A DNA stretch of 40,647 bases. Origin: a virus. Both the position numbers and the translations under genes were made by a program. Of the stretch, positions 5,841-40,647 are shown one piece after another. Positions within the stretch are counted from its first letter, which is position 1, and every line of letters begins with the position of its first letter. Below the pieces are notes generated by a model, which saw nothing but the letters and a program-made list of their open reading frames with translations, did not search any database and had not been told where the DNA came from. The stretch is from the UHGV virus genome UHGV-0183130, one strand, 5' to 3'.

Positions 5841-5994
5841 TCTTCCCCCCTTCTAATCCGTACGCTTTCCTCAACTGATAGATGAGCTCAGTATTGAACT
5901 GACGGCACTCATCTTCCCCATTTCTCTCTATCGCCAACCGGACATCTTCAGGAAATCGAACCTTACGCTGGTACATATCTTTAGCTTTTTCCAT
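5827..5994 (-). CDS. Arc-like ribbon-helix-helix repressor
   Basis: Start at ATG 5994 (SD GGAGGGG) gives 55 aa MEKAKDMYQRKVRFPEDVRLAIERNGE..., size and pattern like P22 Arc. The longer track ORF would read through the operator palindromes. Confidence 0.6.
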   Translation of the reverse strand: MEKAKDMYQRKVRFPEDVRLAIERNGEDECRQFNTELIYQLRKAYGLEGGKSEQA

Positions 5995-6007
5995 AACCCC
6001 TCCAATT

Positions 6008-6075
6008 ATGCCCCACGGTGGGACACATAAAGTGTCACACCGTGCGTCATTGATGTCAACCCCACCGTGGGGCAT
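6008..6075. promoter_or_regulatory. Operator region between divergent Arc-like and Mnt-like genes
   Basis: Perfect 15-bp inverted repeat ATGCCCCACGGTGGG (6008-6022) / CCCACCGTGGGGCAT (6061-6075), each holding an 11-bp palindrome (CCCACGGTGGG, CCCACCGTGGG), flanking a central near-palindrome GACACATAAAGTGTC. Confidence 0.5.
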
Positions 6076-6113
6076 AATTTACATAATGTGAACTTTTTGA
6101 GTGAGGCAACCAA

Positions 6114-6557
6114 ATGAGCAGAGAAGATCCTCAACTAAGAATAAGATTACCAATTGAATTAAAAGAAAAAATTGAAGATGCAGCAAAATCCAATAACCGC
6201 TCTATGAATGCTGAAATAGTTCAACGTCTCGACAACAGCTTCCTTAGCGAATTACGTGAAGATGAAGTAATTTCTGCTCAAGATGCAATTCAACTTGTTG
6301 AAAAAGCGAGGGATGAACTCTCTGAAATAATATTCAAAAGGACTTTTTCAGAGATCAACAAAAAGGTACGGATTGGTCATTCCACATTCCATATTCATCT
6401 CAGCGATCTTGAGTTGGACGGACTTAGTGACGATGATTTCAACACTGTTTTCAAAAAAACTTTTAGTCGCCTAAAAGAGTTAGGTTACGAAGTCTGGGAA
6501 AAGACTTGGGATGCGGATGGTTTTGGGGTGGAAATTCCAGGGGAACAGTCCACCTAA
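6114..6557 (+). CDS. Mnt-like ribbon-helix-helix repressor with C-terminal extension
   Basis: N-terminus MSREDPQLRIRLPIELKEKIEDAAKSNNRSMNAEIVQRLDNSF parallels P22 Mnt; 147 aa, AT-rich; divergent from the Arc-like gene. Confidence 0.6.
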   Translation: MSREDPQLRIRLPIELKEKIEDAAKSNNRSMNAEIVQRLDNSFLSELREDEVISAQDAIQLVEKARDELSEIIFKRTFSEINKKVRIGHSTFHIHLSDLELDGLSDDDFNTVFKKTFSRLKELGYEVWEKTWDADGFGVEIPGEQST

Positions 6558-6563
6558 ATGGGC

Positions 6564-7274
6564 TTAAGCTAGAGTCTTATAGCGAAGTACCTTCATTGTT
6601 CTTTCTTGCCAGTAGCCGCCGTATGGCACACGTTGGCTGAGGTGCCCATACAGGTGATGCAACAGCATGTTACCTTCCAGTAGAATTCCCGCGTGATTCC
6701 ACTTATTGGCCTGGACCTGCATGATAACCATATCACCTGGCTGCGGTACGCCACTGAATTCACGGAATCCGCATTCATACCAGCAATCGTGGTAGAAGTT
6801 TTCGGGATAACTGTCTTCCCACCAGGGATAATCCACGCGGTAATCCGTCAGCTCAATGCCATGCGTTTGCCGGAAATAGCTCATCACCAGCCCCCAGCAA
6901 TCGAAATGACCGAGCACAAATGGGCGCTCAAGTAGCGGCAACTCGCCCCGCGGCTGAATGGTACGCAGATCCCCCTCCGGCCAGCTGAGGATATGCCACG
7001 GAAGTAACGTAGCGTCACACTGTGCCTTATCCAGTTCGCTCGGCTGTGTCGTTGCGTCCGGGTGACTGTGGACAATGGCAATCACTGTTCCCCAGTCTTC
7101 GGCAGCGGCATAATCTTCCGGCGACAGGTGGAAATGCTCTGTCGGATCGGTTGCCAGATTACGGCAAGGAATGTACCGCTGCACCCTGCTTTTTTGCACC
7201 ACTACGCCGCAGCATTCGCGGGGATATTCAGAAGCGGCATGCGCCATAATGGCGTCGATAATTTTCTGACGCAT
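6564..7274 (-). CDS. K: Tail assembly protein K
   Basis: 236 aa; lambda position between L and I; strong resemblance to gpK including the HSHP motif region (AIVHSHPDATTQPSELD). Confidence 0.85.
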   Translation of the reverse strand: MRQKIIDAIMAHAASEYPRECCGVVVQKSRVQRYIPCRNLATDPTEHFHLSPEDYAAAEDWGTVIAIVHSHPDATTQPSELDKAQCDATLLPWHILSWPEGDLRTIQPRGELPLLERPFVLGHFDCWGLVMSYFRQTHGIELTDYRVDYPWWEDSYPENFYHDCWYECGFREFSGVPQPGDMVIMQVQANKWNHAGILLEGNMLLHHLYGHLSQRVPYGGYWQERTMKVLRYKTLA

Positions 7275-18510: not shown

Positions 18511-18713
18511 GCGTAAAATCCTGCCGGTCCCCGGCGTCGTGGAGTGGTGCCAACCTGTGACTCAAGTTCGGCAATGTATTTCTTCAGGTCACTGACTGAA
18601 GTCGCAGTGAACTCAACCCGCCGGCCGTCTTTCTGCACCGTTGCCACCCGCTTTCCCATCATGAGGTCATGCAACGCAGCGCGGGCGGCATCCAGATCAG
18701 TCTGTGTCGCCAT
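18507..18713 (-). CDS. W: Head-tail joining protein W
   Basis: 68 aa; [43 protein letters not shown] is near-identical to remembered lambda gpW. Confidence 0.85.
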
Positions 18714-20635
18714 TATTCATCTCCAGATAATGCCCGGGCATAATCAGCCAGGGTTTTGTTATTGGTCCGGCTCCCCTCTTCCTCCTGCAGGCTCGCGAGC
18801 AGTGAATCAAGATTCAGTTGCCATCGCGAAATACTGATCCGCAGGGCCGCCAGCGCATAAACGAAGCAGTCCAGCGCTTCATTTCGTCGCTTTTTGCTGT
18901 CCCAGACGATTTTCTTACGCCCGTCCACCCATTTTTCAACCTGCTCCTCAGCAGTCAGTTGCTGAGCCTCAGCCAGATCGTAAATTTCGGGGTTATTGGG
19001 AAAATGCACGGCTCCGGCAAGAGGTTCACTCCCTTCCGGCTGAAGTGTGAAGCGGTTATAAATCTGCTCCTTTGCGGTATCAGTCCCCACTTCCGTCAGA
19101 TAAACGCCGTTCTTGTTGCGTTTACGCGGCATATTCGCGACGGGCTTACCGTAAACGGAAGCCCCTTTAATCGGGATCACGCGAAACAGGCCATGCTTTT
19201 TTGAGCGATTGTAGACAATGGTCGGGTCAATACCGCCGATATCCCAGCAGATACGGGATACCGACATTTCCACGCCATTCTTTCGGGAGTAGGTTTTGTT
19301 AATCGCCTCGTCCACCCTGACGAGGGTCGCTTCATCATCATGACGGCCCATAATGATTTGCCGGTCAATCAGCCAGCTTTCCTCTCCGGGTCCCCATCCC
19401 CAGACGCGCATTTCATATCGATCCAGCTGGGAGTCAATCCCGGCTGTCAGATAAGCAACACGATCCGGTACGGATGCCCCGAAAAACTCTTTGCGTTCGG
19501 CCATGAGCTCCGCGTCAGGCCGTTCACCAATTTTAGGCTCCCATGTTTCGCCCAGCGTAGTGTTCACGAAGGTTTTACGCTTTCCGGTATCCCCTTTCGT
19601 TTTTAGCCAGTCTTTGACGATCTGTACCCAGGTGGTAAATGGGCTGTATGCCGTCCAGATGTGAAACGTCACGCTGTCCGGCGGGTCGATTTCTGTGCCT
19701 GTTGATGAAAACCAGGATAAACCATCGCGCGTCCAGATCCCGGTGGTGTCGCAGATGTAACGAGCTTCAGTGAAATCCAGCTCCTGCTGCTTAATGACGC
19801 AGGCATTATGTTCACACAGGTAAAAGACGCTGGAGGGTTCGCCCGGTGTCCATTTGAACCCGAACGGGGTTTCTTTGTCGCCGAACTTAAGGTACTGCTC
19901 TTCACCACAGTGCGGACAGGCAACATGAAAGCGCATGAAATGCCCGGACTCGCTGGCAGCACGCTCAATCTGGCAGGTCCCCTTTGTTTTTGGCGTTGAG
20001 CCACGAATAGATTTAGGCCAGACAGAGCCCTCAATACGTTTATCACCCAGAAACGTCGGGGAACCCTCTTTCTCAATATCCTCATCAAAAGCAGCGAGTT
20101 CGTCATAGCCGGCAACATCCACTGACTTTTCGCGATAGTTTTTCGCCGCCTTACCCCCCAGACACCAGAACCCGCGACCGTTGGAGAAGCGTTTCATACT
20201 GAGCGTATTGTCCCGGTGCTTTTTGCCATACCAGGGGGCCAGCGCCAGAAGTGACGGAATATCACGGATCGTGGGTTCAACATGCGACTTCATGAAGTTT
20301 TCGGCGTCACCATCCGTGGGCAGCCAGATAAGGGAATTTCGCTGCTTGTGCTGTATAAAATACGCATAAACACCCAGCAACATTTTTGAATAGCCAACAC
20401 GGGCAGACTTAACAACGTTAACTTCACGAATGTAGTCGTTACCCATCGCATTCATGATCGCGCGCTGAAATGGCAATGTTTCCCAGCGCCCTTCCTGGTA
20501 GGCCGACTCTTTGGGGAGATAGTAATTATCGTCTGCCCATTCAACCGCCGTTTGCGGCTCAGGTCGGTACAGCGAAAGTAGACCCGCGCGCGCAGAGTGC
20601 TGCAGCCCCTTAACCTGACTGTTCGATATATTCAC
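18713..20635 (-). CDS. A: Terminase large subunit A
   Basis: 640 aa starting MNISNSQV (GTG start overlapping Nu1, as in lambda); extensive near-identity to lambda gpA blocks. Confidence 0.9.
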
Positions 20636-21155
20636 TCAGCAACCCCGGTATTATTTCATCCAGCGCAGCTGCTTTGTTCATGGCTTTAATGATGTCCTTC
20701 TTGAGGAAATCAATATGTCGGTTTTCCAGCTCCGGGAAGCGCCGCTGAACAGACAGAGCAACTCCATCAAGAATGCTGGCTACTTCTCCGGCCATCCGCG
20801 ACAGCACGAACGTGCAGAATGCGGTTTCCACCACCTCAGCGGAATCTTTTGCATTTTTTAGTTCCTGGGCGTCAGCCTGTGCCCGGGTGAGGCGATGACG
20901 CTCATAGTCAATCGTACCAGGCTGAAGGTCGGATTCCGATGCAAGACGAAGGTCTTCCACCTCCTTCCGTAATTTCTCATTCTCAATCGCCGCGTCGCGT
21001 GCGGAATACCATTCAATAGCCGCGGAAGATTCATAGAGGACCTCATTACCTTTTCCGCCGCCACGTGCTACAGGCATTCCCTGATCCTGCCAGTTCTGAA
21101 TGGTTCGCACGCTGACCCCAAATATTTCAGAAAGACGCTTTTTGTTGACCTCCAT
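20610..21155 (-). CDS. Nu1: Terminase small subunit Nu1
   Basis: 181 aa MEVNKKRLSEIFGVSVRTIQNWQDQGMPV..., close to lambda Nu1 along its length. Confidence 0.9.
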   Translation of the reverse strand: MEVNKKRLSEIFGVSVRTIQNWQDQGMPVARGGGKGNEVLYESSAAIEWYSARDAAIENEKLRKEVEDLRLASESDLQPGTIDYERHRLTRAQADAQELKNAKDSAEVVETAFCTFVLSRMAGEVASILDGVALSVQRRFPELENRHIDFLKKDIIKAMNKAAALDEIIPGLLSEYIEQSG

Positions 21156-21159
21156 AGCT

Positions 21160-21400
21160 CACTCCATGCACAAAAACAGAGAAAGGAAACGCCCTCTGGC
21201 TATTTAGCCGTTTTTAAGGCTTATCATTTCCTTTCTTTTCAGGGGGTGTTTACAGTTAAAACAATGAATTAGCGAGAAGAAGAACGGAAACGGCAAATGC
21301 CTGAAAATTTTCATAAATAGCGAGAATCTGCGCGGTCGCCGCCCCGTAACGGAGCGGATCGCTGGAAAGGACCCGCAAACGATAATAAATATCAATTTCA
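21160..21400. other. cos site (cosB - cosN - cosQ), lambda type
   Basis: Reverse complement of 21300-21344 reads GGGCGGCGACCGCGCAGATTCTCGCTATTTATGAAAATTTTCAG, close to the lambda left end; 12-nt cohesive-end equivalent at 21333-21344; cosB-like sequence toward Nu1 and cosQ-like GCGGGTCCTTTCC...GTTACG on the other side. Confidence 0.8.
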
Positions 21401-21496
21401 CAATTCGATTTATAAGCTATCCCTATAATGATTCTCTTAGCGTATGCACAATTAAATGGGCACATCACATTTAGTGCCCTTAGGTTTTCTTCTAGA

Positions 21497-22000
21497 TTAC
21501 TTTGCTTTAAGAACGCTTTTTGATTCTTTAACTAAATCTTCCAGAAGTTTATTTGTCAACGATAAGAGATGTTCTTCAGCATCATCTGTATCTAACCCCT
21601 GAAAATTAACTTCATAGTCAACCTTATCTTCTCGTTTCAAATAATCAGTTAGAAGTTTTGATACTGATTCAGTAACCAGCAAGGGGCCGATATTGCTATA
21701 TTTTACTATTAAATCTTTTGCCTCAGCAGCTGAGATTTGTAATTTACTAAGTTTCTCAGCACTCAATTTGATAAAGTTTGGATATTCATCTGGACCTAAT
21801 CGTTGATACTCTTTCAAATCAGAATAATAATCTTGTAGAACCTTTACCTGATAAATTGCATTAGTTAATTCAATAAGGGCCCCTGCTCTCTTCTCCCACC
21901 ACTTTTCACTATAAAAACGTTTTAAAGCAAATAACATTGCAATCCATGCACCAAGTCCACCCGCTACTACAGAGATCACTAATTGGTAAATATAATTCAT
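21497..22000 (-). CDS. Hypothetical membrane-anchored protein, AT-rich cargo gene
   Basis: 167 aa, N-terminal hydrophobic helix IYQLVISVVAGGLGAWIAMLFAL then a charged helical region; SD GAGG before ATG; local GC roughly 35-38 percent versus about 52 percent in phage core. Confidence 0.5.
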   Translation of the reverse strand: MNYIYQLVISVVAGGLGAWIAMLFALKRFYSEKWWEKRAGALIELTNAIYQVKVLQDYYSDLKEYQRLGPDEYPNFIKLSAEKLSKLQISAAEAKDLIVKYSNIGPLLVTESVSKLLTDYLKREDKVDYEVNFQGLDTDDAEEHLLSLTNKLLEDLVKESKSVLKAK

Positions 22001-22420
22001 GATAGCCTCGCATATTTATACTGTGACTATTCTGCATGATTTTGACTAATCAGTACATATCAACCATTCTTTCCGGATGACCGCGCTAATGATATCGAGA
22101 CAATCCCTACAGATTAGTCTGCTCCCTATGGAATTTTTCTCTTCCACATTTCCTTCAGTACAGGGGGAGTTATTGTGCATTATCTCAGGCGCTCAGTGAA
22201 TGCCTCTGTAATGGCAGCCTGTGTAACAAACAACCTACCGTTCAATGGCTGAGCGACCTGCTATCACGATGGCAGTCATCATGGAAAAACCCCATATTTT
22301 CTATAATTAATAAGAAAATCATGACATAAGTCATTGAAATACTGATTGCTCATTGTAACTTGGATTTATCTCCCCACTTCCCTATTGCGCTATTGTTGGC
22401 GTAATTAGGAGAAGCTATAA

Positions 22421-22846
22421 ATGACTGGTAAAACAATTAATCTGCAATTTGATGGGTATTGGCGTGAAGCCAATAAGAGTGGCGTTCCAGATCAGTCAGG
22501 AATCTACTGCGTATACGCATGCAAAGCTGTTACTAATGGCTCCAAGACAACACTCGAAATTCGTAAGTTGATTTATATCGGCGAATCATCGAACGTCCGA
22601 TCCCGTGTGGCCACGCACGACAGGCTGGGTGACTGGAATGAACATTTAATGGTCGGTGAGACTCTCTGCTATTCCGTCGCTACTATTACTGGAAAAGATG
22701 ATCGGGTGCGCGCAGAAGCTGCATTGATTAACAAAATGACTCCCCCTGCAAATAGCGAGTATACGGGTGAATTCCCTTACAACGAAACCACTGTTAACTG
22801 CTCTGGGGAAACTTCGCATTTGCTTTCCACATTAACCGTTGGTTAA
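22421..22846 (+). CDS. Putative GIY-YIG-like nuclease domain protein
   Basis: 141 aa; SGIYCVY ... KLIYIGESSNVRSRVATH ... RVRAEAALINKMTPPAN fits GIY / YIG / Arg / Glu / Asn motif order, though the GIY-YIG spacing is longer than canonical. Opposite strand to flanking late genes. Confidence 0.45.
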   Translation: MTGKTINLQFDGYWREANKSGVPDQSGIYCVYACKAVTNGSKTTLEIRKLIYIGESSNVRSRVATHDRLGDWNEHLMVGETLCYSVATITGKDDRVRAEAALINKMTPPANSEYTGEFPYNETTVNCSGETSHLLSTLTVG

Positions 22847-22880
22847 CTCTTTAAAATGGCTGGCTAAGTCTAGCGGCCAT

Positions 22881-23042
22881 TCACTTCAAACATTGCTGCC
22901 TGATGTAATCCTGTAAGTAACTCACTTGCCCGGTGATGGTGCTGATTCGCTCTCTGAGGGTGAAATAATCCCGTTTAGCGGCGTCAGTAAGTCGGGGGCT
23001 ATTGCCATCATCCTTACCGATGATATTGTCTGTTTCACTCAC
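22881..23042 (-). pseudogene. Remnant of an Rz (i-spanin) 3' end
   Basis: In-frame minus translation [43 protein letters not shown] matches the Rz C-terminus; about 54 bp at 22945-22998 is a near-repeat of 24061-24114 inside the intact Rz; no N-terminal part. Confidence 0.55.
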
Positions 23043-23165
23043 TCAGTAGTTAGTATGGTTCTGCATTGTCCCTTCACTAATGTCGTGCTGCGATGTAATT
23101 TCACGGAGGGCCATCACTCCGGCACAGTACGCCGCCCCGATGACCTCCCAGTCCGGCTTGCTCAT
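23043..23165 (-). CDS. Small ORF (40 aa) with HTH-like sequence resembling terminase small-subunit N-termini; possibly a gene remnant
   Basis: MSKPDWEVIGAAYCAGVMALREITSQHDISEGTMQNHTNY; AGGA-type SD upstream; ends with stop directly followed in frame by the Rz remnant. Confidence 0.3.
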   Translation of the reverse strand: MSKPDWEVIGAAYCAGVMALREITSQHDISEGTMQNHTNY

Positions 23166-23251
23166 GCTTCTTTCCTATTAAAGTAATCCCATTGATGACC
23201 TATGGTAAGACGGAAGTAAACCTGTCATCTATGCTACCGAGGAGATTCTCG

Positions 23252-23440
23252 ATGGACGAAACAATTACTGAAAATGCTATTAAGCAAGCATATAGCGTTA
23301 CCATCATGCAGCTTTTTAATGTCTATCTAAATTCAGCAAACGATCCCAACGCATCAGCAAGATTTCAGGAAGGGCTTCGTCTTGCGATACAAGTCCGAGA
23401 TGCCTGCTTGCAAATCGCCTCCCAAAACCATGCGCCATGA
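23252..23440 (+). CDS. Hypothetical small protein (AT-rich cargo)
   Basis: ATG with GAGGAG SD; 62 aa; first of three tandem same-strand small ORFs; 4-nt overlap with next ORF. Confidence 0.3.
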   Translation: MDETITENAIKQAYSVTIMQLFNVYLNSANDPNASARFQEGLRLAIQVRDACLQIASQNHAP

Positions 23441-23685
23441 ATTCATTAGCGGCCTATTCAAAAACTACCATTACGATGGGTCTGCCCATGGTTATGGCAA
23501 CGCAGAAAGGTAATAGAATAAGAGTTAATCCCCTGACCTTACCAAACCAGCGGCCCACCCTAATTAGCTCGATTACTTTGAATACAACTTTTGTGTTTAG
23601 GCAACCTCAAAAATCATACAAACATATCACCCACGCTGATAAAAAAACAATCCAAAATAAAATCTCATTTACATCACTGGAGTAA
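23437..23685 (+). CDS. Hypothetical small protein (AT-rich cargo)
   Basis: 82 aa ORF overlapping the previous stop (ATGA); no recognisable family. Confidence 0.25.
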   Translation: MNSLAAYSKTTITMGLPMVMATQKGNRIRVNPLTLPNQRPTLISSITLNTTFVFRQPQKSYKHITHADKKTIQNKISFTSLE

Positions 23686-23690
23686 CAACC

Positions 23691-23936
23691 ATGCCTAACT
23701 GTGAACTTTTAACCGAAACCGGCGTTGATAACTTTGCCATTGTTATCAAATTTCTATCAGAAAACAACCTTATAGATGAAGCAGTTAATTATTTAAAAAA
23801 CAATGGCCATACAAATATTAGAGTCAGCATCGAAGCTGTTGAAGACATACAGAAATTCTTATCCGAAAAATATCCATCATCCTCATCAAGCAAAGCTGAT
23901 GCCATAATTAATTGCAGTCATAGCCATTGCAGTTAA
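23691..23936 (+). CDS. Hypothetical small protein (AT-rich cargo)
   Basis: 81 aa ORF with GGAG SD; acidic, Ser-rich C-terminus; no recognisable family. Confidence 0.3.
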   Translation: MPNCELLTETGVDNFAIVIKFLSENNLIDEAVNYLKNNGHTNIRVSIEAVEDIQKFLSEKYPSSSSSKADAIINCSHSHCS

Positions 23937-23996
23937 TTACTAACGCTATGCCAACTAATATTGAATAACTAATCAGACAGCGAAATAGGTGACAAG

Positions 23997-24461
23997 TCAT
24001 TTTAAATTCTGCGCACTGACATATTCTTGTAATCCGGCAAGTTGCTTGGTGACAGTTTCTATTCGCTCTCTGAGAGTGAAATAATCCCGTTGAGCGGTGT
24101 CAGTAAGTCTGGGGCCGGTTGCATCATCCATGCTGGCGGTGTCGGTGGTTTGACGCACTTTATTGCAGGCGGCTGCAACGCGCAGCTGCTTGCGCCCAGA
24201 CTCAACATCGCCACGTAGACCGCTAATGGTGTTTTTCGCATCAGCTAACTCCTTCGTATATTTGGCATCCAGTGCAGCGACATCGCGCTGGCGGGTTTGC
24301 ATGTCGGTGATAGTAACGTTAGCTAGGCTGAGCTTTTCAGTTGCTTTGTTGCGTTGGTCTTTGTAGGTGATCGCGTTGTCGCGGTAGTGGTTAACGGCCC
24401 AGCCTAGAGATAAGATTATGCAGATGATCACAGTAATGATGATGTTTGTTAGTCGACTCAC
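23997..24461 (-). CDS. Rz: Spanin inner-membrane subunit Rz
   Basis: 154 aa; [16 protein letters not shown]...[20 protein letters not shown] parallels lambda Rz; GTG start overlapping endolysin stop. Confidence 0.85.
24059..24241 (-). CDS. Rz1: Spanin outer-membrane lipoprotein Rz1, embedded in Rz in +1 frame
   Basis: 60 aa with signal peptide and lipobox (LGASSC), proline-rich [17 protein letters not shown] and C-terminal TPLNGIIS, as in lambda Rz1. Confidence 0.75.
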
Positions 24462-25006
24462 CGGTCAATCCCCCAGCACGTCAGCGCACTTTCTTGATCG
24501 CGCCGCTCGACCTGCCCATAGCACCCATTTTTCTGGCCTTTGGTCAGACGACAGTCGCGGCCGCCGTCTTTAATCCACCAGCGGATCGCTTCACAGGCGC
24601 CTTTACGGTCACCAGCGTTAATGCGCTTATAGAACGTAGAAGGGAAACATTTTCCGGGGCCGATGTTGTAAGGACAAAATGACGCAATACCCGCTTTCTG
24701 TGGTTCGGTCAGTGGTACTTTGATATTTCGCTCAACCCACGCCAGCGCCTTGTCGCGTTCTATGGCGTTCACCTTGGCGCATTTCTCAGCAGACAGCTTC
24801 ATGCCCTGAACTACTGGCTTACCATCAACCATCGTGGCGCCACGGCAAATAGTCCAGATTCCGCCGCCGTCGCGATATGCTGTCAGGCTGTTACCCTCTT
24901 TCTCATCCAGAAACTGATCGAGAATCACGGGCGCGGAAGCCCCCGCAAGAATCAAACCAACGACCGCTGCGCTCAGTTTATTCTTCAGCTTTGGTGGCAT
25001 AGCCAT
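24458..25006 (-). CDS. Endolysin, T4-lysozyme family (GH24) with N-terminal signal-anchor-release-like segment
   Basis: Gly/Ala-rich weakly hydrophobic N-terminus [19 protein letters not shown] then E-x8-D-x5-T catalytic spacing ([16 protein letters not shown]); resembles phage 21-type SAR endolysins. Confidence 0.8.
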
Positions 25007-25256
25007 TGCGCCGATCCTCCCGTTCTTTCCAGCGGAAATACCAGTTCACTGCACAAGTGATAACTGTGCATGCGATACCGACAATAATTGCCCAGTCGCT
25101 CAGGCTTAACCCTGCAATTCTGTCGGCCAGCATCCAGGACACCTCTTTTGCTGTTTTAGCTGTTTCGGCATATGCCTTCGCTGATACACCGCAGCCGGCA
25201 AGCGTGGTTCCTGATCCATATGAAAGTCTGCTGTAAATGGTGCTCATTCTGGTCAT
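24978..25256 (-). CDS. Holin, pinholin-like, possible dual start (MTRM)
   Basis: 92 aa with two hydrophobic segments, the first Gly/Ser/Ala-rich; C-terminus [15 protein letters not shown] resembles the phage 21 pinholin tail; SD GGAGG; overlaps endolysin start. Confidence 0.7.
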   Translation of the reverse strand: MTRMSTIYSRLSYGSGTTLAGCGVSAKAYAETAKTAKEVSWMLADRIAGLSLSDWAIIVGIACTVITCAVNWYFRWKEREDRRNGYATKAEE

Positions 25257-25360
25257 AGCCCTACCTCCGATTATTCGGATGGCGCTGTGTGATGAAAGGG
25301 TCAGGCTTCACGGGCTGGATTTATCAACAATATGTATCGTGGATGATTCCCGTGAGCCTG

Positions 25361-25390
25361 AAATAAAAAAGCCCCGGCGAATGCCAGGGC
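25361..25390 (-). terminator. Rho-independent terminator upstream of the lysis cassette (tR'-like)
   Basis: On minus strand GCCCUGGC-AUUC-GCCGGGGC (8-bp stem with one G-U) followed by UUUUUUAUUU. Confidence 0.6.
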
Positions 25391-25915
25391 TGGTAAATCT
25401 CAAATTTAAATATCAAAGGGATTTCGTTTTAGCTCCAGAGCTTCCTGTTGTCGCCAATGCAACCAGGTTGGTTTTAATGACTTAGCCTTCTCTGATGATG
25501 AGCAAGTTTTTTGGTATAGGTATTCAGTCATACTTATACCAACCTTGGTATCTGGAAATACCCCATGGTATGTGCCGTCAGGATCCTGATGATTGGATAC
25601 GAATAACAATTGCACAAAAGTATTCATACCTTCATTAGACAAATAACAAGAATGAATAAAACGTAGGGTATGAAAATGGTGACTATCTAAATTAACCATG
25701 ATGCTCTCCATGTGGAGTTTATAGCACTCATGTGCACATCACCCGGCGGGTGAAGGGCAAATTTTAACCTTTCCCCTCAGTTTCATCCAACAACAATAAT
25801 AAAACCCGCTCATCGGCGGGTTTATAAAATTTTGGCAACATATCAAATATGCTTAAAATATGGCTTATTTTGTTGCATTTTGCAAGCGCGTTTGAAGGAG
25901 ATAGTGAAATTTACT

Positions 25916-26605
25916 TCACATTTCTGCCACTTTGAGGGCTTCTTCTTCCTCATAGTATTCAAGAGCCATTGCCAACGCAGATTCATCAAGCTGGGTAAAA
26001 GCGGCCTTTAACCCAGCCCAGTGCCATGAATAGACACGCAACCATGTCGAACGGTCAACGCTAACCATGCGGGCCAACGCTGCACCAGCATAGTCTTTAT
26101 AGGTTTCATTATTTCTGTTTGCGGCAATTTCCTGCCCTGCCAGCCATACCAGACCTATCAGTTTCTTTACTACACGCTCCTGAAGCGAGTTTTCACCCAG
26201 GCATTTCTGATAAGTTTTCCAGACGTATTCACACATCATCACCTGGTGCTTATAGCTAAGGTCAAAACCGTAGCAGTACCGCAACCAGGCCTGCTGGTAT
26301 CCACTAAGCGCGGACACTGCCCTACGCCACGGCGCGGACTCAAATTCCGCATCTTTTATCGGCGGCATTGGCCTGCGGCGGCTGCGTGTTTCCAGCACAT
26401 ACAGTGGCGCGGAAAGCGAGTTAACAAAGCGTGGCCCCTTCTCTCCTTCGAGTTCGACGAGATGAATTCCACGGCGCGGGGTGGCATTTTTGTCTGCTGG
26501 TGGGTGTTCACTGAAAGCCTCAAGCTGCCCTTTTGTTCCCCCAGAGAGGTCAGGTAGCGCGCGGCGCAATTCTATTCTTACAAAATTCAGGTCTTGTTGA
26601 TTCAT
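25916..26605 (-). CDS. Putative late-gene antiterminator (Q-like, QuuQ-type), assigned mainly by position
   Basis: About 229 aa from ATG 26605; sits between the DUF968-like gene and the lysis cassette, matching the ydfU - quuQ - holin order recalled from E. coli Qin prophage; not similar to lambda Q itself. Confidence 0.45.
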   Translation of the reverse strand: MNQQDLNFVRIELRRALPDLSGGTKGQLEAFSEHPPADKNATPRRGIHLVELEGEKGPRFVNSLSAPLYVLETRSRRRPMPPIKDAEFESAPWRRAVSALSGYQQAWLRYCYGFDLSYKHQVMMCEYVWKTYQKCLGENSLQERVVKKLIGLVWLAGQEIAANRNNETYKDYAGAALARMVSVDRSTWLRVYSWHWAGLKAAFTQLDESALAMALEYYEEEEALKVAEM

Positions 26606-26626
26606 GCTTCTTTGCGCTCCATACAC

Positions 26627-33539: not shown

Positions 33540-34199
33540 ATGAAAACAGAGATGAAAGACCGCATCAGATCCAGACGAATCCAGCTGGATATAACCCAAT
33601 TAGCACTGGCTAAAAAGCTTGGTGTAAGCCGTGTATCGGTTACAAAATGGGAAAACGGCACGACAAAGCCTGATGGTGAGAACCTTCACCAGTTGGCTCA
33701 GGCTCTATCAACAACACCAGAGTGGATACTCTATGGAAGCGGTGATGAGGCCATTGACGACACGCGCGTCGTGCCTTTTTTGAAACCCCCTGTAGCTGTA
33801 CCGATCATATCGGCAGTTCAAGCCGGTTTATGGACGGATAGCTATGCCTGCTCAAGACTTACAGACGTGATTTCCTGGACTCAAACAACTGCAAATGTAT
33901 CGGATGAAGCGTTTGGGTTAGTAGTCCGCGGTGAGTCGATGACTAACCCGCAAGGACTTCCATCTATACCAGAAGGTTCTATTGTTATAGTCGAGCCCCA
34001 TTATGGGCAGCTTGATGATCTATATGGGAAAATAGTCGTTGCTATATTGGATGGGACATCAGAAGCAACGGTTAAAAAATTAGTTTGGGATAGCCCCTAC
34101 TCATACCTAATGCCACTGAATCCGTTATTTAAGCCAATCCAAATTGATGGTAACTGTCGCATTGTCGGAAAAGTTGTACAAATCACTCAAAACATTTAA
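33540..34199 (+). CDS. cI: CI-like repressor (HTH_XRE N-domain plus LexA/S24 autopeptidase C-domain)
   Basis: 219 aa; N-terminal HTH (ITQLALAKKLGVSRVSVTKWENG), C-terminal S24 features (VRGESM serine region, KK pair); divergent from cro. Confidence 0.85.
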   Translation: MKTEMKDRIRSRRIQLDITQLALAKKLGVSRVSVTKWENGTTKPDGENLHQLAQALSTTPEWILYGSGDEAIDDTRVVPFLKPPVAVPIISAVQAGLWTDSYACSRLTDVISWTQTTANVSDEAFGLVVRGESMTNPQGLPSIPEGSIVIVEPHYGQLDDLYGKIVVAILDGTSEATVKKLVWDSPYSYLMPLNPLFKPIQIDGNCRIVGKVVQITQNI

Positions 34200-36667: not shown

Positions 36668-36918
36668 CCGTATTTGAATATCTCCAGGCTCATCCGAATA
36701 CCACCAGCGGTGAAATCGCCAAAGGTATGAACAAAACTACGCCAGCGGTCGCCGGAGCATTATCGCAACTCTATGGCACAGGCCGGATCGTGAAGTCTGG
36801 TGTTCGCAAGGGCATTCCAACATACCGTGTTAACGATATGCCGTTTGGGTGTAGTAACAGCCTAACCATGATGTTTAACCAGCTATTGAATAGAGCCAGA
36901 CAGGGAAGCGCGCTATGA
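36664..36918 (+). CDS. Small winged-helix DNA-binding protein (MarR-like wHTH)
   Basis: 84 aa; FEYLQAHPNTTSGEIAKGMNKTTPAVAGALSQLYGTGRIV is a typical wHTH recognition-helix/wing layout; coupled (ATGA) to flanking ORFs. Confidence 0.45.
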   Translation: MTVFEYLQAHPNTTSGEIAKGMNKTTPAVAGALSQLYGTGRIVKSGVRKGIPTYRVNDMPFGCSNSLTMMFNQLLNRARQGSAL

Positions 36919-37991
36919 GCAAATCGAGTATGGAGTATTACTTCGAGTTCCCTGCCTCTCGCGGCTTGCAGGGGGATACGCTTATTCTTTTGATGAACGT
37001 TCCAGGACGAACCCTATCCCGCGTACTGGCATCTGATAATTACGGACACACGCTTGAGCGTTCTCAGCGTGAACTCAATAAATCACGCGTAAAAAATTTT
37101 TACGAATACCTAGTGGCAGCTGCTGAAAATAAGGAGCCTTTCATCATCCCACCACTGGTTGGTAACTGTGCTTCACATGTGGAGTTTGAAGAGTTCGGCA
37201 ATACAAACGTAGGCGTTGTTCGGTTCCCAATGGACGCAGAAATTAAACTTTTTGATGGGCAACATCGTGGTGCAGGTATAACCATGTTCTGCAGAGAATA
37301 CGATACACCCCTGTTTGTACCTTTGATGATGACTCTGCAACTACCACTGAAGACACGCCAGCAATTTTTCTCTGATATCAATAACAACGTATCTAAGCCT
37401 TCTGCAGCAATAAATATGGCTTATAACGGCAGGGATCAGGTTGCCCAGACAATGGTGTCATTCCTCTCCACTCACTCAGTGTTCTCCGAGATCACCGATT
37501 TTGAACACAGCGTGGTTCCGGCAAAAAGTGACCTCTGGATTAGTTTTAAGGCCGTTGGTGATGCAACTGCTAAATTCGCGGGTAACGGGGACGATGCGCT
37601 GTCTACTGGCGATATTTATGACCTTTGGGAAGCGTGGCTGAAGCTGACGGCTATTGATGGTATCCGACACGGTGTATCACCAGCTGAATACAAGCGAGAT
37701 TACATCCAATTCCATGCGGTGATGATCAATGCGTTTGGCTATGCAGTCCAGGAACTACTGAGGCGTCGCCCTGCGCATATCATCGTGCAGATGATCGAAG
37801 AACTGGTAACAAAAGCCACAATGACCGAGCTGGAAGACTTCTTCCTTATCTCTTCATGGGATGGTGTTTGTGCTGATGCCAGCAAAGAAAGAGCCACGGT
37901 AATTGCCAGCGTTCCGGCACAGAAAGCTGCAGCACAAAGGCTTGCAATGGCTATCACAGCAGGGACATTCGCAATGGAGGCAGCCCAATGA
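36915..37991 (+). CDS. DGQHR-domain protein (DndB-like / ParB-like fold)
   Basis: 358 aa with the signature FDGQHRGAGI; coupled by ATGA overlaps to the wHTH gene upstream and the Ea22-like gene downstream. Confidence 0.6.
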   Translation: MSKSSMEYYFEFPASRGLQGDTLILLMNVPGRTLSRVLASDNYGHTLERSQRELNKSRVKNFYEYLVAAAENKEPFIIPPLVGNCASHVEFEEFGNTNVGVVRFPMDAEIKLFDGQHRGAGITMFCREYDTPLFVPLMMTLQLPLKTRQQFFSDINNNVSKPSAAINMAYNGRDQVAQTMVSFLSTHSVFSEITDFEHSVVPAKSDLWISFKAVGDATAKFAGNGDDALSTGDIYDLWEAWLKLTAIDGIRHGVSPAEYKRDYIQFHAVMINAFGYAVQELLRRRPAHIIVQMIEELVTKATMTELEDFFLISSWDGVCADASKERATVIASVPAQKAAAQRLAMAITAGTFAMEAAQ

Positions 37992-39278: not shown

Positions 39279-39515
39279 ATGTCGCGAATGATCCCTTTAC
39301 TTGACTGGGCAAAAGAGGAATTTGGAGAGCAAGCACCAAGTGAACGCATATTGAAAAAATATGCAAAGGGAAAAATGATGGCTCCTCCAGCAATTAAGGT
39401 TGGTCGCTGCTGGATGGTTGATCGTAATGCCCGATTTGTAGGAATGCTTGCAGAACCGAAAATTCCGACTTCGGCCAGCCCAAGATTACAACGGATAATT
39501 GCTGATGGCTGCTAG
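39279..39515 (+). CDS. xis: Excisionase-like protein
   Basis: About 78 aa from ATG 39279 (SD GGAG); immediately upstream of and overlapping int; KVGRCWMVDRNARFVG fits small excisionase DNA-binding proteins. Confidence 0.5.
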   Translation: MSRMIPLLDWAKEEFGEQAPSERILKKYAKGKMMAPPAIKVGRCWMVDRNARFVGMLAEPKIPTSASPRLQRIIADGC

Positions 39516-40647
39516 ACCACGCACTCACAAAATACCAATCCCTAACCTGTACTGCAAATTGGATAAGCGCACCGGTAAGGTATATTGGCAATATAAACAT
39601 CCTATTTCAGGTCGTTTTCACAGCCTTGGAACCGATGAATCCGAGGCTAAACAAGTCGCCACAGAAGCTAACATAATCATAGCTGAACAGCGAACTAGGC
39701 AGATCTTGAGCGTGAATGATCGCCTGGCACGGATGAAAGGCAGGCGCACTGATATTACGGTTACTGAGTGGCTCGATAAATACATAGGCATTCAGGAGGA
39801 AAGGCTTAAAAATAACGAGCTTAAACCAAACTCCTTTCTTCAAAAAGGTAAGCCTGTCCGTTTATTCAGAGAACACTGCGGCCTGCAGCATCTAAAGGAT
39901 ATTTCAGCTCTCGATATTGCAGAAATAACTGATGCCATTAAAGCCGAAGGCCACAATCGCATGGCTCAGGTAGTTAGAATGGTGCTCATCGATGTTTTTA
40001 AAGAGGCGCAACATGCCGGACACGTTGCCCCCGGATACAATCCGGCGCAAGCCACTAAGCAACCGAGAAATAGAATAACAAGGCAGCGTCTTTCCTTTGA
40101 TGAATGGAGTGTTATTTATAAGACGGCGGAACAGCAGCAGCCTTATCTTCAGTGTGGCATGTTATTAGCCCTAATCACTGGTCAGCGTCTTGGTGATATA
40201 TGCAATATGAAATTCACCGATGTATGGGATGACATGCTCCATATCGAGCAGGAAAAAACAGGTTCTCGTCTGGCTATTCCGTTAGATCTTAGATGCGAGG
40301 TGCTGGGCCTCACTCTCAGGGATGTTATTTCAAAATGTCGGGATGCGGTTGTCAGTAAATATCTTGTCCATTTCAGGCACACCACATCCCAGGCCAATAG
40401 AGGTGATCGAGTGTCGAGCAGCTGCCTGACATCCACTTTTAAAAAAGCCAGAGACAAAAGCGGCCTAGAGTGGAAAAACGGTACGCCCCCAACTTTCCAT
40501 GAACAGCGTTCTTTATCGGAGCGACTGTATCGTGAACAGGGTCTGGATACTCAGAAACTGCTGGGGCACAAGTCCAGAAAAATGACGGATAAGTATAACG
40601 ACGATCGAGGGAAAGACTGGGTCGTTGTTGGGGTAAAAACGGGGTAA
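39505..40647 (+). CDS. int: Tyrosine integrase, lambda Int family
   Basis: C-terminal catalytic region parallels lambda Int (ITGQRLGDICNMKFTDV, PPTFHEQRSLSERLY, LLGHKS, DKYNDDRGKDW); track ORF begins at TTG 39499, first ATG at 39505; stop codon is the last three bases of the window. Confidence 0.85.
   Translation: MAARPRTHKIPIPNLYCKLDKRTGKVYWQYKHPISGRFHSLGTDESEAKQVATEANIIIAEQRTRQILSVNDRLARMKGRRTDITVTEWLDKYIGIQEERLKNNELKPNSFLQKGKPVRLFREHCGLQHLKDISALDIAEITDAIKAEGHNRMAQVVRMVLIDVFKEAQHAGHVAPGYNPAQATKQPRNRITRQRLSFDEWSVIYKTAEQQQPYLQCGMLLALITGQRLGDICNMKFTDVWDDMLHIEQEKTGSRLAIPLDLRCEVLGLTLRDVISKCRDAVVSKYLVHFRHTTSQANRGDRVSSSCLTSTFKKARDKSGLEWKNGTPPTFHEQRSLSERLYREQGLDTQKLLGHKSRKMTDKYNDDRGKDWVVVGVKTG

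What the first reader, a model, noticed from the sequence alone, without database searches (positions are those of the whole stretch)
21497..23936. AT-rich cargo island between cos and the lysis cassette
This 2.4 kb segment has visibly lower GC than the phage core and holds genes with no lambda counterpart: a membrane-anchored 167-aa protein (minus strand), a GIY-YIG-like 141-aa protein (plus strand) and three tandem small plus-strand ORFs. The Rz-to-cos interval is where lambda carries bor, a classic moron position. A single-pass membrane protein plus a small nuclease is a composition typical of abortive-infection or superinfection-exclusion modules.
Basis: partly seen in the sequence, partly recalled or inferred. 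Interest (0 to 1): 0.7.

Follow-up and report, generated by a model that had tools for sequence, protein, structure and literature searches.

The report
Composite prophage cargo island, two independent genes
The low-GC stretch between the lysis genes and cos of this Citrobacter lambda/phi80-like prophage is a real patchwork cargo region, carrying a small membrane protein and a stand-alone GIY-YIG nuclease that travel independently of each other; the nuclease family looks like an undescribed anti-phage defence gene.

Summary
Window 21497-23936 is the lowest-GC 2.4-kb stretch (0.407 against 0.515). It lies between Rz (23997-24461, minus) and a phi80-type cosN (21333-21344) of a minus-strand lambdoid prophage of the Citrobacter freundii complex.

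It is a composite of accessory ("moron") cassettes plus recombination scars, not one module.

1. The 167-aa gene encodes one transmembrane helix plus a cytoplasmic four-helix bundle. It belongs to a large family with no Pfam model. In most relatives it carries a conserved promoter-like element, and a hairpin follows the gene here and in four aligned relatives. It usually occurs without any nuclease.
3. An Rz C-terminal fragment and a small-terminase N-terminal fragment mark an old illegitimate junction.
4. Of the three small ORFs, two are plausible genes of unknown function and the middle one is doubtful.

The "membrane protein + nuclease = one Abi/Sie module" reading is not supported. A defence role is plausible for the nuclease and speculative for the membrane protein.

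The parts
21333..21344 (-). cosN, the 12-nt cohesive end of phi80/lambda type. It is the left limit of the right chromosome arm that carries the island.
   Evidence: 99% identity of window 21150-21345 to bases 1-195/196 of phage phi80, whose record annotates the first 12 bases as the sticky end. The sequence GGTCGCCGCCC is read directly.
21458..21479 (-). Hairpin (GGGCAC-N10-GTGCCC) followed by ATTTAATT, just downstream of the 167-aa gene. Terminator-like.
   Evidence: Read from the sequence. Homologous loci have GC-rich hairpins with T-runs at the same place. It was not picked up by the strict terminator scan.
21497..22000 (-). 167-aa gene. It encodes an N-terminal transmembrane helix (residues about 3-25), an invariant juxtamembrane motif LKRFYSEKWWEKR and a predicted cytoplasmic four-helix bundle. 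It is co-oriented with the late operon.
   Evidence: phrog_17948 at E 6.7e-21, with no Pfam, NCBIfam or PADLOC family. AF2 pLDDT is 82, all-helical. The superfamily has 1323 representatives at E<=1e-3. dN/dS is about 0.07-0.13 where dS is estimable.
22169..22213 (-). Conserved 45-bp element upstream of the 167-aa gene. It has an imperfect palindrome followed by TGAGATAAT, which resembles an extended -10. Promoter-like.
   Evidence: The same element (consensus ...CAGGCAttcactgagTGCCTGtGATAATGCA) lies 31-34 nt before the ATG in at least 8 distinct lineages. In this window it lies 175 nt before the ATG.
22421..22846 (+). 141-aa stand-alone GIY-YIG nuclease gene. It is antisense to the late operon and has a strong Shine-Dalgarno sequence (AGGAG).
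22855..22881 (.). Hairpin between the convergent GIY-YIG gene and the Rz remnant. On the minus strand it is followed by TTTTAAAG, so it is probably the old Rz terminator and may work in both directions.
   Evidence: Read from the sequence. A comparable hairpin lies at the same place in the Klebsiella locus L023.
22881..23042 (-). Rz C-terminal remnant (about 45 codons), with an Rz1-like frame at 22922-23038. A recombination scar.
   Evidence: PF03245 Phage_lysis at E 1.6e-14, matching positions 85-125 of 126. phrog_13 Rz-like spanin at E 2e-16. 87% identical over 69 bp to the 3' part of the intact Rz.
23043..23165 (-). N-terminal 36-40 codons of a small terminase subunit (pac-type, phrog_1206), fused head-to-tail to the Rz remnant. 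An illegitimate junction.
   Evidence: phrog_1206 terminase small subunit at E 1.2e-11, positions 4-39 of 207. The start of the Klebsiella prophage terS (MAKPDW...) looks similar to the eye; no alignment was run.
23252..23440 (+). 62-aa ORF (82 aa from the TTG at 23192) with a GAGGAG Shine-Dalgarno sequence. Hypothetical protein, and the last gene of the segment shared between backbones.
   Evidence: Called in nearly all identical loci. Its 90% cluster has 20 members from Citrobacter and Buttiauxella, all 'hypothetical'. No family hit.
23437..23685 (+). 82-aa ORF, probably not a gene.
   Evidence: Called in 1 of about 12 identical loci. No Shine-Dalgarno sequence and a low-complexity product. 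Homology with the HK97-like backbone degrades at 23444, with a 1-bp deletion at 23454, and ends at 23501.
23691..23936 (+). 81-aa acidic ORF with a GGAG Shine-Dalgarno sequence and GC 0.34. Hypothetical protein, replaced by other small genes in the HK97-like backbone.
   Evidence: Called consistently. Seen on 57 contigs of the Citrobacter freundii complex, with one Hafnia variant. No phage tblastn hit. Only a weak phrog_18434 match at E 0.006.
23997..24461 (-). Intact Rz (i-spanin), the right-hand boundary of the island.
   Evidence: PF03245 on the identical product in L001; the ORF is.

Best explanation
The Rz-to-cos interval of this phi80/lambda-like Citrobacter prophage is an accessory-gene ("moron") hotspot, filled by at least two separate acquisitions and one illegitimate recombination. 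It holds two well-supported genes that have nothing to do with each other, plus small ORFs and debris.

(1) The 167-aa gene.
- It is a self-contained cassette: a conserved promoter-like element, the gene, then a hairpin.
- It encodes a single-pass inner-membrane protein whose C-terminal four-helix bundle faces the cytoplasm. The topology is inferred from the positive-inside rule.
- It is the ancestral occupant of this slot in related phages.
- Its most likely role is a prophage-expressed membrane function that acts on other phages, such as blocking DNA entry at the inner membrane. This is inference by analogy only.

(2) The 141-aa gene.
- It is a minimal GIY-YIG endonuclease (catalytic domain only) with an intact active site, transcribed against the late operon.
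- Its family hops sporadically across bacteria and some archaea.
- It sits in prophage accessory slots and defence islands.
- In several phyla it is the gene placed directly under the CapH/CapP DNA-damage-responsive regulators that control immune operons.
- It is therefore most likely a stand-alone anti-phage (or anti-mobile-element) DNA nuclease. Here it would be expressed from the prophage and silenced by converging late transcription during the phage's own lytic growth. That regulation, the substrate, and how it spares host DNA are all inferred or unknown.

(3) Scars and small ORFs.
- The Rz and terS fragments show that a segment 'Rz - small ORFs - terS' from a pac-type phage was joined into the Rz of a cos-type phage that already carried 'Rz - GIY-YIG - 167-aa gene - cos'.
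- The block 21333-23443 later moved nearly unchanged into an HK97-like backbone.
For: Architecture and mosaicism:
- Lowest GC in the window.
- Rz and terS fragments.
- The sister phage L045 has only the 167-aa homologue between Rz and cos.
- A 2.1-kb block, 21333-23443, is shared with an HNH/Terminase_4/TerL backbone and differs at only 4 positions (22541, 22920, 23262, 23408). Divergence rises sharply outside it.

Independence of the two genes:
- 0 of 80 and 0 of 84 loci show co-occurrence.
- Enterobacter, C. braakii and Rahnella carry the membrane gene alone.
- Klebsiella, Ruminococcaceae, Aeromonas and Ralstonia phage RsoM1USA carry the nuclease alone.

Both are real genes:
- dN is 0.24-0.45 with saturated dS, and dN/dS is 0.07-0.21 where computable.
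- Both AF2 models are confident.

Nuclease:
- Invariant catalytic residues and the GIY-YIG fold.
- Found in 74 species genomes over more than 15 phyla, but only 6 viral contigs.
- In 10 of 79 loci a CapP-like peptidase lies upstream on the opposite strand. PADLOC gives capP E 1e-55 to 1e-63 for five of the six examples scanned (3.5e-32 for the truncated L168 copy) and capH E about 1e-24 for two. capH is directly divergent in L134, L158, L173 and L185.
- Neighbours include DarT+Macro, an Eco29kI restriction-modification pair, SMODS, patatin, Multi_ubiq+ThiF, ThsB-like TIR, caspase-like and SLFN domains.
- CapH/CapP are published regulators of immune operons that respond to DNA damage (bioRxiv 10.1101/2022.04.27.489752).

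Membrane protein:
- A conserved upstream element at fixed spacing and a downstream hairpin.
- Relatives sit in three kinds of module boundary in temperate phages: between lysis and packaging genes, upstream of xis/int, and inside the head module.
Against: - No experiment and no expression data were available.
- The sigma-70 scan of the island finds no more promoter-like sites than shuffles do (6 against 7.6). In the window the conserved element is displaced to 175 nt from the ATG.
- The nuclease matches no known defence family. PADLOC gives only local PDC-S14 matches at E 1.3e-4, and Pfam GIY-YIG scores 18.9 bits, below the 22.6 cut-off.
- CapH/CapP-type regulators (DdrO/IrrE) also control DNA-repair genes, so that association is not specific to immunity.
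- Defence enrichment among the neighbours was not compared with a background set.
- A nuclease with no partner or sensor domain has no obvious way to spare host DNA.
Confidence: 0.6

Rival explanations
1. The membrane protein and the nuclease act together as a two-component abortive-infection or exclusion system, in effect a split version of a membrane-tethered nuclease such as SNIPE (PD-lambda-1).
For: - The two genes are neighbours, transcribed divergently from a shared 420-bp AT-rich spacer.
- They moved together in the 2.1-kb block now found in two phage backbones.
- SNIPE shows that a membrane anchor plus a GIY-YIG nuclease can be a defence (bioRxiv 10.1101/2025.11.03.685801).
Against: - None of 80 loci with relatives of the membrane protein has a GIY-YIG gene within 4 kb. 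None of 84 GIY-YIG loci has the membrane family.
- Each gene occurs alone in the same slot of other prophages.
- The joint transfer is recent (the block differs at only 4 positions), so it says nothing about function.
- There is no PADLOC hit to PD-Lambda-1, and no DUF4041.
Confidence: 0.06
2. The 141-aa GIY-YIG protein is a selfish free-standing homing endonuclease. The scars around it are by-products of homing and co-conversion, and it gives the host no benefit.
For: - It is an orphan gene on the opposite strand, wedged between conserved genes. Examples are between tail genes S and V of Ralstonia phage RsoM1USA and between the lysis and terminase genes in Citrobacter and Klebsiella.
- An Rz 3' remnant lies next to it in both Citrobacter and Klebsiella.
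- The family is sporadic and highly conserved.
Against: - It is a single compact domain of 141 aa with no DNA-binding or linker module.
- It is found mostly in chromosomes and rarely in phage genomes: 74 species genomes against 6 of 2.9 million viral contigs, using the same kind of pattern.
- In several phyla it sits under CapH/CapP repression and among defence genes, which is not expected for a homing gene.
- The Rz remnant is explained by recombination in the conserved Rz 3' core.
Confidence: 0.15
3. The GIY-YIG protein is a DNA-damage-induced repair or processing nuclease, working like UvrC-N or Cho. It benefits the lysogen under genotoxic stress rather than acting against phages.
For: - There is a weak NCBIfam match to excinuclease Cho (E 0.002).
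- CapH/CapP are homologues of DdrO/IrrE, which switch on repair genes after DNA damage.
Against: - The neighbours are defence genes and mobile-element genes, not repair operons.
- The family is sporadic and horizontally scattered rather than a conserved core gene.
- There is no UvrB-interacting or C-terminal UvrC module.
Confidence: 0.1
4. The 167-aa membrane protein is an accessory of the lysis pathway, for example a modulator of holin timing or of membrane disruption, rather than a lysogen-expressed moron.
For: - In the close subfamily (46% identity or more) it is always the first gene after the lysis cassette, on the late strand, in lambda-like, DUF1441/gpA and HK97-like backbones.
- It is a small inner-membrane protein, like holins, antiholins and spanins.
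Against: - More distant relatives lie next to xis/int or inside head-assembly modules.
- It has its own conserved upstream element. In L038 and L040 a terminator-like hairpin precedes that element.
- It has very low GC3 (0.24), unlike the lysis genes.
- Lambda and phi80 lyse without it (no hits).
Confidence: 0.12

Closest known systems
Lambda bor / HK97 gp15-type morons (accessory cassettes inserted between conserved phage modules)
   Same: - The island occupies the same kind of place. Bor lies between Rz and cos in lambda (from established knowledge), and HK97 gp15 is annotated as a 'moron product' flanked by a terminator.
- Its composition is deviant, and it is absent from sister phages.
- The 167-aa gene has promoter-like and terminator-like flanks.
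   Different: - There is no sequence similarity to lambda or HK97 genes.
- The island is a stack of several cassettes plus gene fragments, not a single moron.
- Expression from the prophage is untested.
Single-protein GIY-YIG defence nucleases: PD-T4-3 (5hmC-specific restriction enzyme, PDB 9u75), SNIPE/PD-lambda-1, Uzume
   Same: - It has a GIY-YIG catalytic fold with the full residue set.
- It is a single gene in mobile or defence contexts.
- The literature lists these three as GIY-YIG single-gene systems.
   Different: - No PADLOC profile for these families matches at E<=1.
- No PDB relative is found by sequence.
T4 endonuclease II (DenA), a minimal stand-alone GIY-YIG nuclease
   Same: - It shows that a protein this small can be a complete DNA endonuclease.
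   Different: - Identity is only 20%.
- EndoII is a lytic-phage enzyme that degrades unmodified host DNA (from established knowledge).
- The protein here sits in a temperate phage, antisense to the late operon, and its relatives are mostly chromosomal.
CapH/CapP-regulated immune operons (CBASS and others)
   Same: In L134, L158, L173 and L185 a capH-capP pair lies immediately upstream of, and divergent from, the GIY-YIG homologue. This is the published configuration. In L134 the operon continues with Multi_ubiq and an E1-like gene, which resembles the '6e.2' operon mentioned in that paper.
   Different: The window itself has no capH or capP. Here the gene is prophage-borne and its regulation is unknown.
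Inner-membrane superinfection-exclusion proteins (P22 SieA, 162-164 aa)
   Same: It is a small prophage-encoded inner-membrane protein of similar length, in an accessory position (PMC10883804).
   Different: - SieA has three predicted transmembrane helices and a different conserved motif. The 167-aa protein has one helix plus a soluble helical bundle.
- No sequence similarity was detected.
- No exclusion phenotype is known.

Membership tests
Moron (independent accessory transcription unit in a phage genome) | Inserted between conserved modules and absent from closely related phages | tested here: met
   L045 (Nu1 94%, gpA 93% identical) has only the 167-aa homologue between Rz and cos. Phi80 and lambda give no hits.
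Moron (independent accessory transcription unit in a phage genome) | Nucleotide composition different from the surrounding genome | tested here: met
   GC is 0.407 against 0.515, the lowest 2.44-kb window. GC3 is 0.24-0.44 against 0.52-0.62.
Moron (independent accessory transcription unit in a phage genome) | Own promoter and terminator | tested here: inconclusive
   A conserved TGnGATAAT-containing element lies 31-34 nt before the ATG in at least 8 lineages, but 175 nt before it here. Hairpins lie downstream. The generic promoter scan is not above chance.
Moron (independent accessory transcription unit in a phage genome) | Expressed from the repressed prophage | not testable with these tools
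   Needs RNA-seq or reporter fusions in a lysogen.
GIY-YIG nuclease superfamily | GIY...YIG motifs plus catalytic Arg, His/Tyr, Glu and Asn | tested here: met
   GIY at residues 27-29 and YIG at 52-54. R62, H66 and N111 are invariant and E99 is at least 90% conserved in 45 homologues.
GIY-YIG nuclease superfamily | GIY-YIG alpha/beta fold | tested here: met
   [not shown]
GIY-YIG nuclease superfamily | Pfam PF01541 gathering score | tested here: not met
   18.9 bits against a cut-off of 22.6. Some homologues carry a precomputed PF01541 hit. This is a divergent subfamily, not a non-member.
Known GIY-YIG defence systems (PD-T4-3, PD-lambda-1/SNIPE, Uzume) | Match to the system's profile and its domain architecture | tested here: not met
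   [not shown]
Two-gene membrane-protein + nuclease Abi/Sie module | Conserved co-occurrence of the two components across genomes | tested here: not met
   0 of 80 and 0 of 84 loci. Each gene is found alone in the same slot.
Free-standing GIY-YIG homing endonuclease (Seg/Tev-like) | Catalytic domain joined to a DNA-binding domain; site-specific cleavage of the intron-less or empty allele | tested here: not met
   It is a single 141-aa domain with no additional Pfam domain. The cleavage specificity cannot be tested here.
CapH/CapP-regulated immune operon | capH and capP immediately upstream of, and divergent from, the regulated gene | tested here: not met
   They are absent from the window island. 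The feature is met for relatives L134, L158, L173 and L185.
Superinfection-exclusion membrane proteins (SieA, HK97 gp15) | Sequence or profile similarity, or an exclusion phenotype | tested here: not met
   tblastn against phages finds only hypothetical proteins of phages CobraSix and OS31. HK97 gp15 is 62 aa and SieA has three transmembrane helices. The phenotype cannot be tested here.

The most novel reading that the evidence does not exclude
The roughly 140-aa, catalytic-domain-only GIY-YIG protein is the founding example of an undescribed single-protein immune nuclease family.
- The family is scattered across more than 15 bacterial phyla and some archaea.
- In some lineages it is gated by CapH/CapP, and in Enterobacterales it is carried as a prophage moron.
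- Because it has no sensor domain, it would have to tell phage DNA from host DNA in some unconventional way, such as modification, structure, timing or dosage.

A second, weaker novelty is that the 167-aa protein represents a very large family with no Pfam model (more than 1300 clusters at 50% identity). Its members are phage-borne single-pass membrane proteins marked by the motif RFYxEKWWEK, and their role is unknown.
Probability: 0.35. Interest if true: 0.65.

Novelty: new member of a known kind. Interest (0 to 1): 0.45.

Why it matters
Cargo islands in the lysis-to-packaging slot of lambdoid prophages are well known, so the island as such is ordinary.

The value lies in two uncharacterised gene families that it exposes.

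- **The GIY-YIG nuclease.** It is minimal, and in distant phyla it sits under the same DNA-damage switch (CapH/CapP) that controls CBASS and other immune operons. If it is a defence enzyme, it would be one of the smallest known. It would also raise a sharp question: how does a bare catalytic domain avoid killing its host?
- **The membrane protein.** It represents a very large family that temperate phages carry at module boundaries, with no Pfam model and no assigned function.

Both are easy to test by cloning and phage challenge.

The analysis also corrects the tempting inference that neighbouring 'membrane protein + nuclease' genes form one system.

Tried and rejected
- **Near-identical DNA:** megablast of the island against 5,426 complete E. 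coli genomes and 50,697 phage records matched only the cos/Nu1 edge and the Rz core.
- **Known RNA families:** an Rfam scan of 20500-26000 at E<=1 gave nothing relevant, only a sub-threshold Trp-leader match outside the island.
- **Promoters and terminators:** the generic scan was not above shuffles for promoters, so it was not used as evidence.
- **Solved structures by sequence:** the PDB search with the GIY-YIG profile found no true relative.
- **Family libraries for the 167-aa superfamily:** Pfam, PADLOC and NCBIfam scans of 62 members gave no family.
- **Profile search for names:** the profile search returned only 'hypothetical' or a single clearly wrong source label.
- **A misaligned upstream region:** my first alignment upstream of the 167-aa gene placed the window wrongly. 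It was corrected once blastn showed the conserved element at 22169-22213.
- **An RNA hairpin in that element:** some compensatory-looking changes are visible by eye, but I did not test this formally and I do not claim it.
- **The Enterobacter 485-aa neighbour as a glycosyltransferase:** Pfam gives no hit, so the idea is dropped.
- **Literature:** searches for a described small stand-alone GIY-YIG prophage defence gene found none. Only PD-T4-3, SNIPE and Uzume are listed.


Full report
**1. Setting**

The window is an essentially complete lambdoid prophage whose late genes run on the minus strand.
- Integrase lies at 39499-40647 and a CI-like repressor at 33540-34199.
- Q lies at 25916-26626, S at 24978-25256, R at 24458-25006 and Rz at 23997-24461.
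- Nu1 lies at 20610-21155 and gpA at 18713-20635. Their Pfam labels come from identical loci.
- Window 21150-21345 is 99% identical to the first 195-196 bases of phage phi80, whose record marks the first 12 bases as the cohesive end. This places cosN at 21333-21344.
- Source names for the identical proteins point to the Citrobacter freundii complex.

**2.

- GC of 21497-23936 is 0.407, against a window mean of 0.515. It is the lowest 2.44-kb window of all.
- GC3 is 0.24 for the 167-aa gene and 0.31-0.44 for the other ORFs, against 0.52-0.62 for the neighbouring core genes.
- The island is absent from 5,426 complete E. coli genomes and from 50,697 phage records at the DNA level.
- None of the three products searched by tblastn (167, 141 and 81 aa) has a lambda or phi80 counterpart.

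**3. Anatomy: a patchwork**

Reading along the late strand from Rz towards cos, the order is:
- intact Rz;
- three small ORFs on the opposite strand (81 aa, 82 aa, and 62 or 82 aa);
- the first 36-40 codons of a small terminase subunit (phrog_1206, E 1.2e-11);
- fused directly to these, the last 45 or so codons of a second Rz (PF03245, E 1.6e-14), with an Rz1-like frame;
- a hairpin;
- the 141-aa gene on the opposite strand;
- a 420-bp AT-rich spacer;
- the 167-aa gene on the late strand;
- a hairpin, and then cos.

A terS start placed upstream of an Rz end is the reverse of the normal gene order. It can only be an illegitimate junction. A segment 'Rz - small ORFs - terS...' from a pac-type phage was joined into the Rz of a cos-type phage that already carried 'Rz - GIY-YIG - 167-aa gene - cos'.

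Three further observations support this history.
- A sister phage, L045 (Nu1 94% and gpA 93% identical), has only a 65%-identical homologue of the 167-aa gene between its own different Rz and cos.
- The block 21333-23443 recurs in prophages with a quite different packaging module (HNH, Terminase_4, TerL, HK97-type portal). The two copies differ at only 4 positions.
- Outside that block identity falls sharply: 9 differences in the next 56 bp on the left, and 6 on the right, including a 1-bp deletion at 23454. Homology ends at 21277 and 23501. The left edge of the near-identical block is cosN itself.

**4. The 167-aa protein**

*Structure and family*
- Residues 3-25 are hydrophobic. The next 12 residues, KRFYSEKWWEKR, are net positive and almost invariant.
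- AF2 (pLDDT 82) predicts one long helix running from the membrane into a four-helix bundle. By the positive-inside rule the bundle faces the cytoplasm; this is an inference.
- It matches phrog_17948 ('unknown function', E 6.7e-21). No Pfam, NCBIfam or PADLOC family matches.
- Close relatives (54-64% identity) are confined to Citrobacter, Enterobacter, Kluyvera, Pectobacterium and Rahnella.
- A profile search finds 1,323 representative clusters at E<=1e-3. The best 150 listed are mostly 150-200 aa and matched over most of their length, and none of 62 members sampled has a Pfam or PADLOC family.
- Fold searches return only generic helical bundles.

*Where its relatives sit*
- In the close subfamily it is always the first gene after the lysis cassette and just before the packaging genes, on the late strand. 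This holds in lambda-like (Nu1/gpA), DUF1441/gpA and HK97-like backbones, usually with no nuclease nearby.
- More distant relatives (22-33% identity) sit next to xis/int, as in phages CobraSix and OS31.
- About 30 further loci have it inside a head-assembly module.

*Flanking signals*
- A 45-bp element travels with the gene. Its consensus is ...CAGGCAttcactgagTGCCTGtGATAATGCA.
- It ends 31-34 nt before the ATG in at least 8 lineages. In the window it lies at 22169-22213, 175 nt upstream.
- TGnGATAAT at that distance fits an extended -10 promoter with a short leader. This is an inference.
- A hairpin follows the gene.

Together with dN/dS of about 0.07-0.13, this is the profile of a moron. What it does is unknown. 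An exclusion function at the inner membrane is my best guess, by analogy with SieA-type proteins (PMC10883804). A role in lysis is the main alternative.

**5. The 141-aa protein**

*Enzyme*
- The motifs GIY (27-29) and YIG (52-54), and residues R62, H66 and N111, are invariant across 45 homologues. E99 is nearly invariant.
- The AF2 model is very confident (pLDDT 95.4).
- It is a single domain with extra edge strands and no sensor or DNA-binding module.
- The Pfam GIY-YIG score is just under threshold (18.9 against 22.6 bits). No PDB relative is detectable by sequence.

*Distribution*
- The family is compact (35-66% identity) but spread across Enterobacterales, Firmicutes, Acidobacteriota, Planctomycetota, Bacteroidota, Spirochaetota, Nitrospirota, Chloroflexota, Actinomycetota, Thermotogota and others. 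It also reaches Thermoplasmata archaea.
- It was found in 74 of the species genomes scanned, but in only 6 viral contigs.
- In phages it is an orphan on the opposite strand. Examples are the same lysis-to-terminase slot in Klebsiella prophages, beside Acb2 and an unrelated 166/188-aa protein, and between tail genes S and V of Ralstonia phage RsoM1USA.

*Chromosomal neighbours*
- The neighbours are often defence genes: ThsB-like TIR, caspase-like and SLFN; DarT plus Macro, an Eco29kI restriction-modification pair, SMODS, patatin, and Multi_ubiq plus ThiF; and type II and III restriction enzymes and a cyclase.
- In 10 of 79 loci a CapP-like peptidase lies upstream on the opposite strand.
- PADLOC confirmed capP in all six examples scanned: E 1e-55 to 1e-63 for five, and 3.5e-32 for the truncated L168 copy. 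It confirmed capH at E about 1e-24 in the two scanned.
- In L134, L158, L173 and L185 capH is directly divergent from the GIY-YIG gene. In the last three the GIY-YIG gene is the only gene on that side.
- CapH/CapP are published DNA-damage-responsive regulators of immune operons (10.1101/2022.04.27.489752).

This is good guilt-by-association evidence for a stand-alone immune nuclease. It is not proof, because the related DdrO/IrrE pair controls repair genes, and I did not measure a background rate for defence neighbours. The protein is not a member of PD-T4-3, SNIPE or Uzume by profile or by architecture.

**6. The two genes are independent**

- No GIY-YIG homologue lies within 4 kb of any of 80 viral loci that carry relatives of the membrane protein.
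- No relative of the membrane protein lies in any of 84 GIY-YIG loci.
- Their adjacency here, and their joint transfer in the 2.1-kb block, is recent history and not evidence of a shared function.

**7. The small ORFs**

- The 62-aa ORF (23252-23440) has a GAGGAG Shine-Dalgarno sequence, and the 81-aa ORF (23691-23936) has GGAG. Both are called consistently and recur in Citrobacter prophages as 'hypothetical protein'. Neither has a family hit.
- The middle ORF (23437-23685) has no Shine-Dalgarno sequence and an odd composition, and it is called in only one of about a dozen identical loci. It is disrupted by a 1-bp deletion where the HK97-like copies still align. I treat it as non-coding.

**8. 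Verdict**

The finding is real and correctly located, and 'cargo island' is right. The specific functional reading, one Abi/Sie module made of a membrane protein plus a nuclease, is not supported.

The island is an ordinary kind of thing, a moron hotspot. It contains two uncharacterised families. The GIY-YIG nuclease is a credible candidate for a new single-gene defence.

- Confidence in the architecture and the independence of the two genes is high, about 0.85-0.9.
- Confidence that the nuclease is a defence gene is about 0.5.
- Confidence that the membrane protein is an exclusion function is about 0.3.

Noticed in passing
window 21277-21344; L003 6650-6724: The block shared with HK97-like (HNH/Terminase_4/TerL) prophages ends exactly at the lambda/phi80-type cosN. 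Those phages therefore carry a lambda-type cohesive-end sequence upstream of their HNH gene, followed by 56 bp of about 84% identity. It looks like a passenger relic, and it suggests that the exchange involved a cos-cut chromosome end.
   Followed up: partly
window 22169-22213 and homologous loci (e.g. L039 3931-3977): The conserved element upstream of the 167-aa gene contains a 6-bp inverted repeat with a 9-nt spacer. By eye it shows some compensatory-looking changes between lineages (CAGGCA/TGCCTG against GGCGCA/TGCGCC). It could be an operator or an RNA or DNA hairpin. I did not test it with covariation tools, and there is no Rfam match.
   Followed up: partly
window 25257-25915: A second low-GC pocket (0.405) lies between Q and the holin gene, which is the classic pR' downstream cargo slot. 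It holds a 97-101-aa minus-strand ORF (25406-25711) with no family hit. Related prophages carry different genes there (261 aa or 182 aa).
   Followed up: partly
window 5172-6557: A low-GC pocket (0.39-0.40) lies inside the tail region. It holds an Arc-like ribbon-helix-helix gene (6114-6557, plus strand; PF03869, E 3e-14) divergent from a Bro-N / P22 antirepressor-like gene (5172-5840, minus strand). This looks like an immI-type antirepressor module.
   Followed up: partly
window 36915-37991: A DndB-family protein (PF14072, E 5e-47; associated with DNA-sulfur modification) is encoded in the early-left region of the prophage. It is another candidate accessory or defence-related gene.
   Followed up: no
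L023-L026 (Klebsiella prophages), about 5866-6150: In Klebsiella prophages the same lysis-to-terminase slot holds the GIY-YIG homologue together with an Acb2/Tad1-hairpin family gene (an anti-CBASS / anti-Thoeris sponge family) and an HslV-like 166/188-aa protein. The slot is therefore a mixed hotspot of defence and counter-defence genes.
   Followed up: partly
L134 6001-8163: In a Terriglobia genome the GIY-YIG homologue is the first gene of a CapH/CapP-controlled operon, followed by Multi_ubiq and DUF6791-ThiF (E1-like) genes. This resembles the '6e.2' ubiquitin-like operon noted in the CapH/CapP paper. The nuclease may be a component or effector of that system in some lineages.
   Followed up: partly
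L017-L022 (Enterobacter prophages) 5567-7024: In Enterobacter prophages the 167-aa homologue is followed on the same strand by a conserved 485-aa protein with no Pfam match. It may be a lineage-specific partner.
   Followed up: no
window 21256-21468 (minus): A 69-70-aa ORF spanning cosN is called as a gene in several assemblies. In E. coli phi80-like prophages the equivalent is annotated 'Fur-regulated protein'. Because cos cleavage cuts it in two, it is probably spurious or expressed only from the prophage.
   Followed up: no
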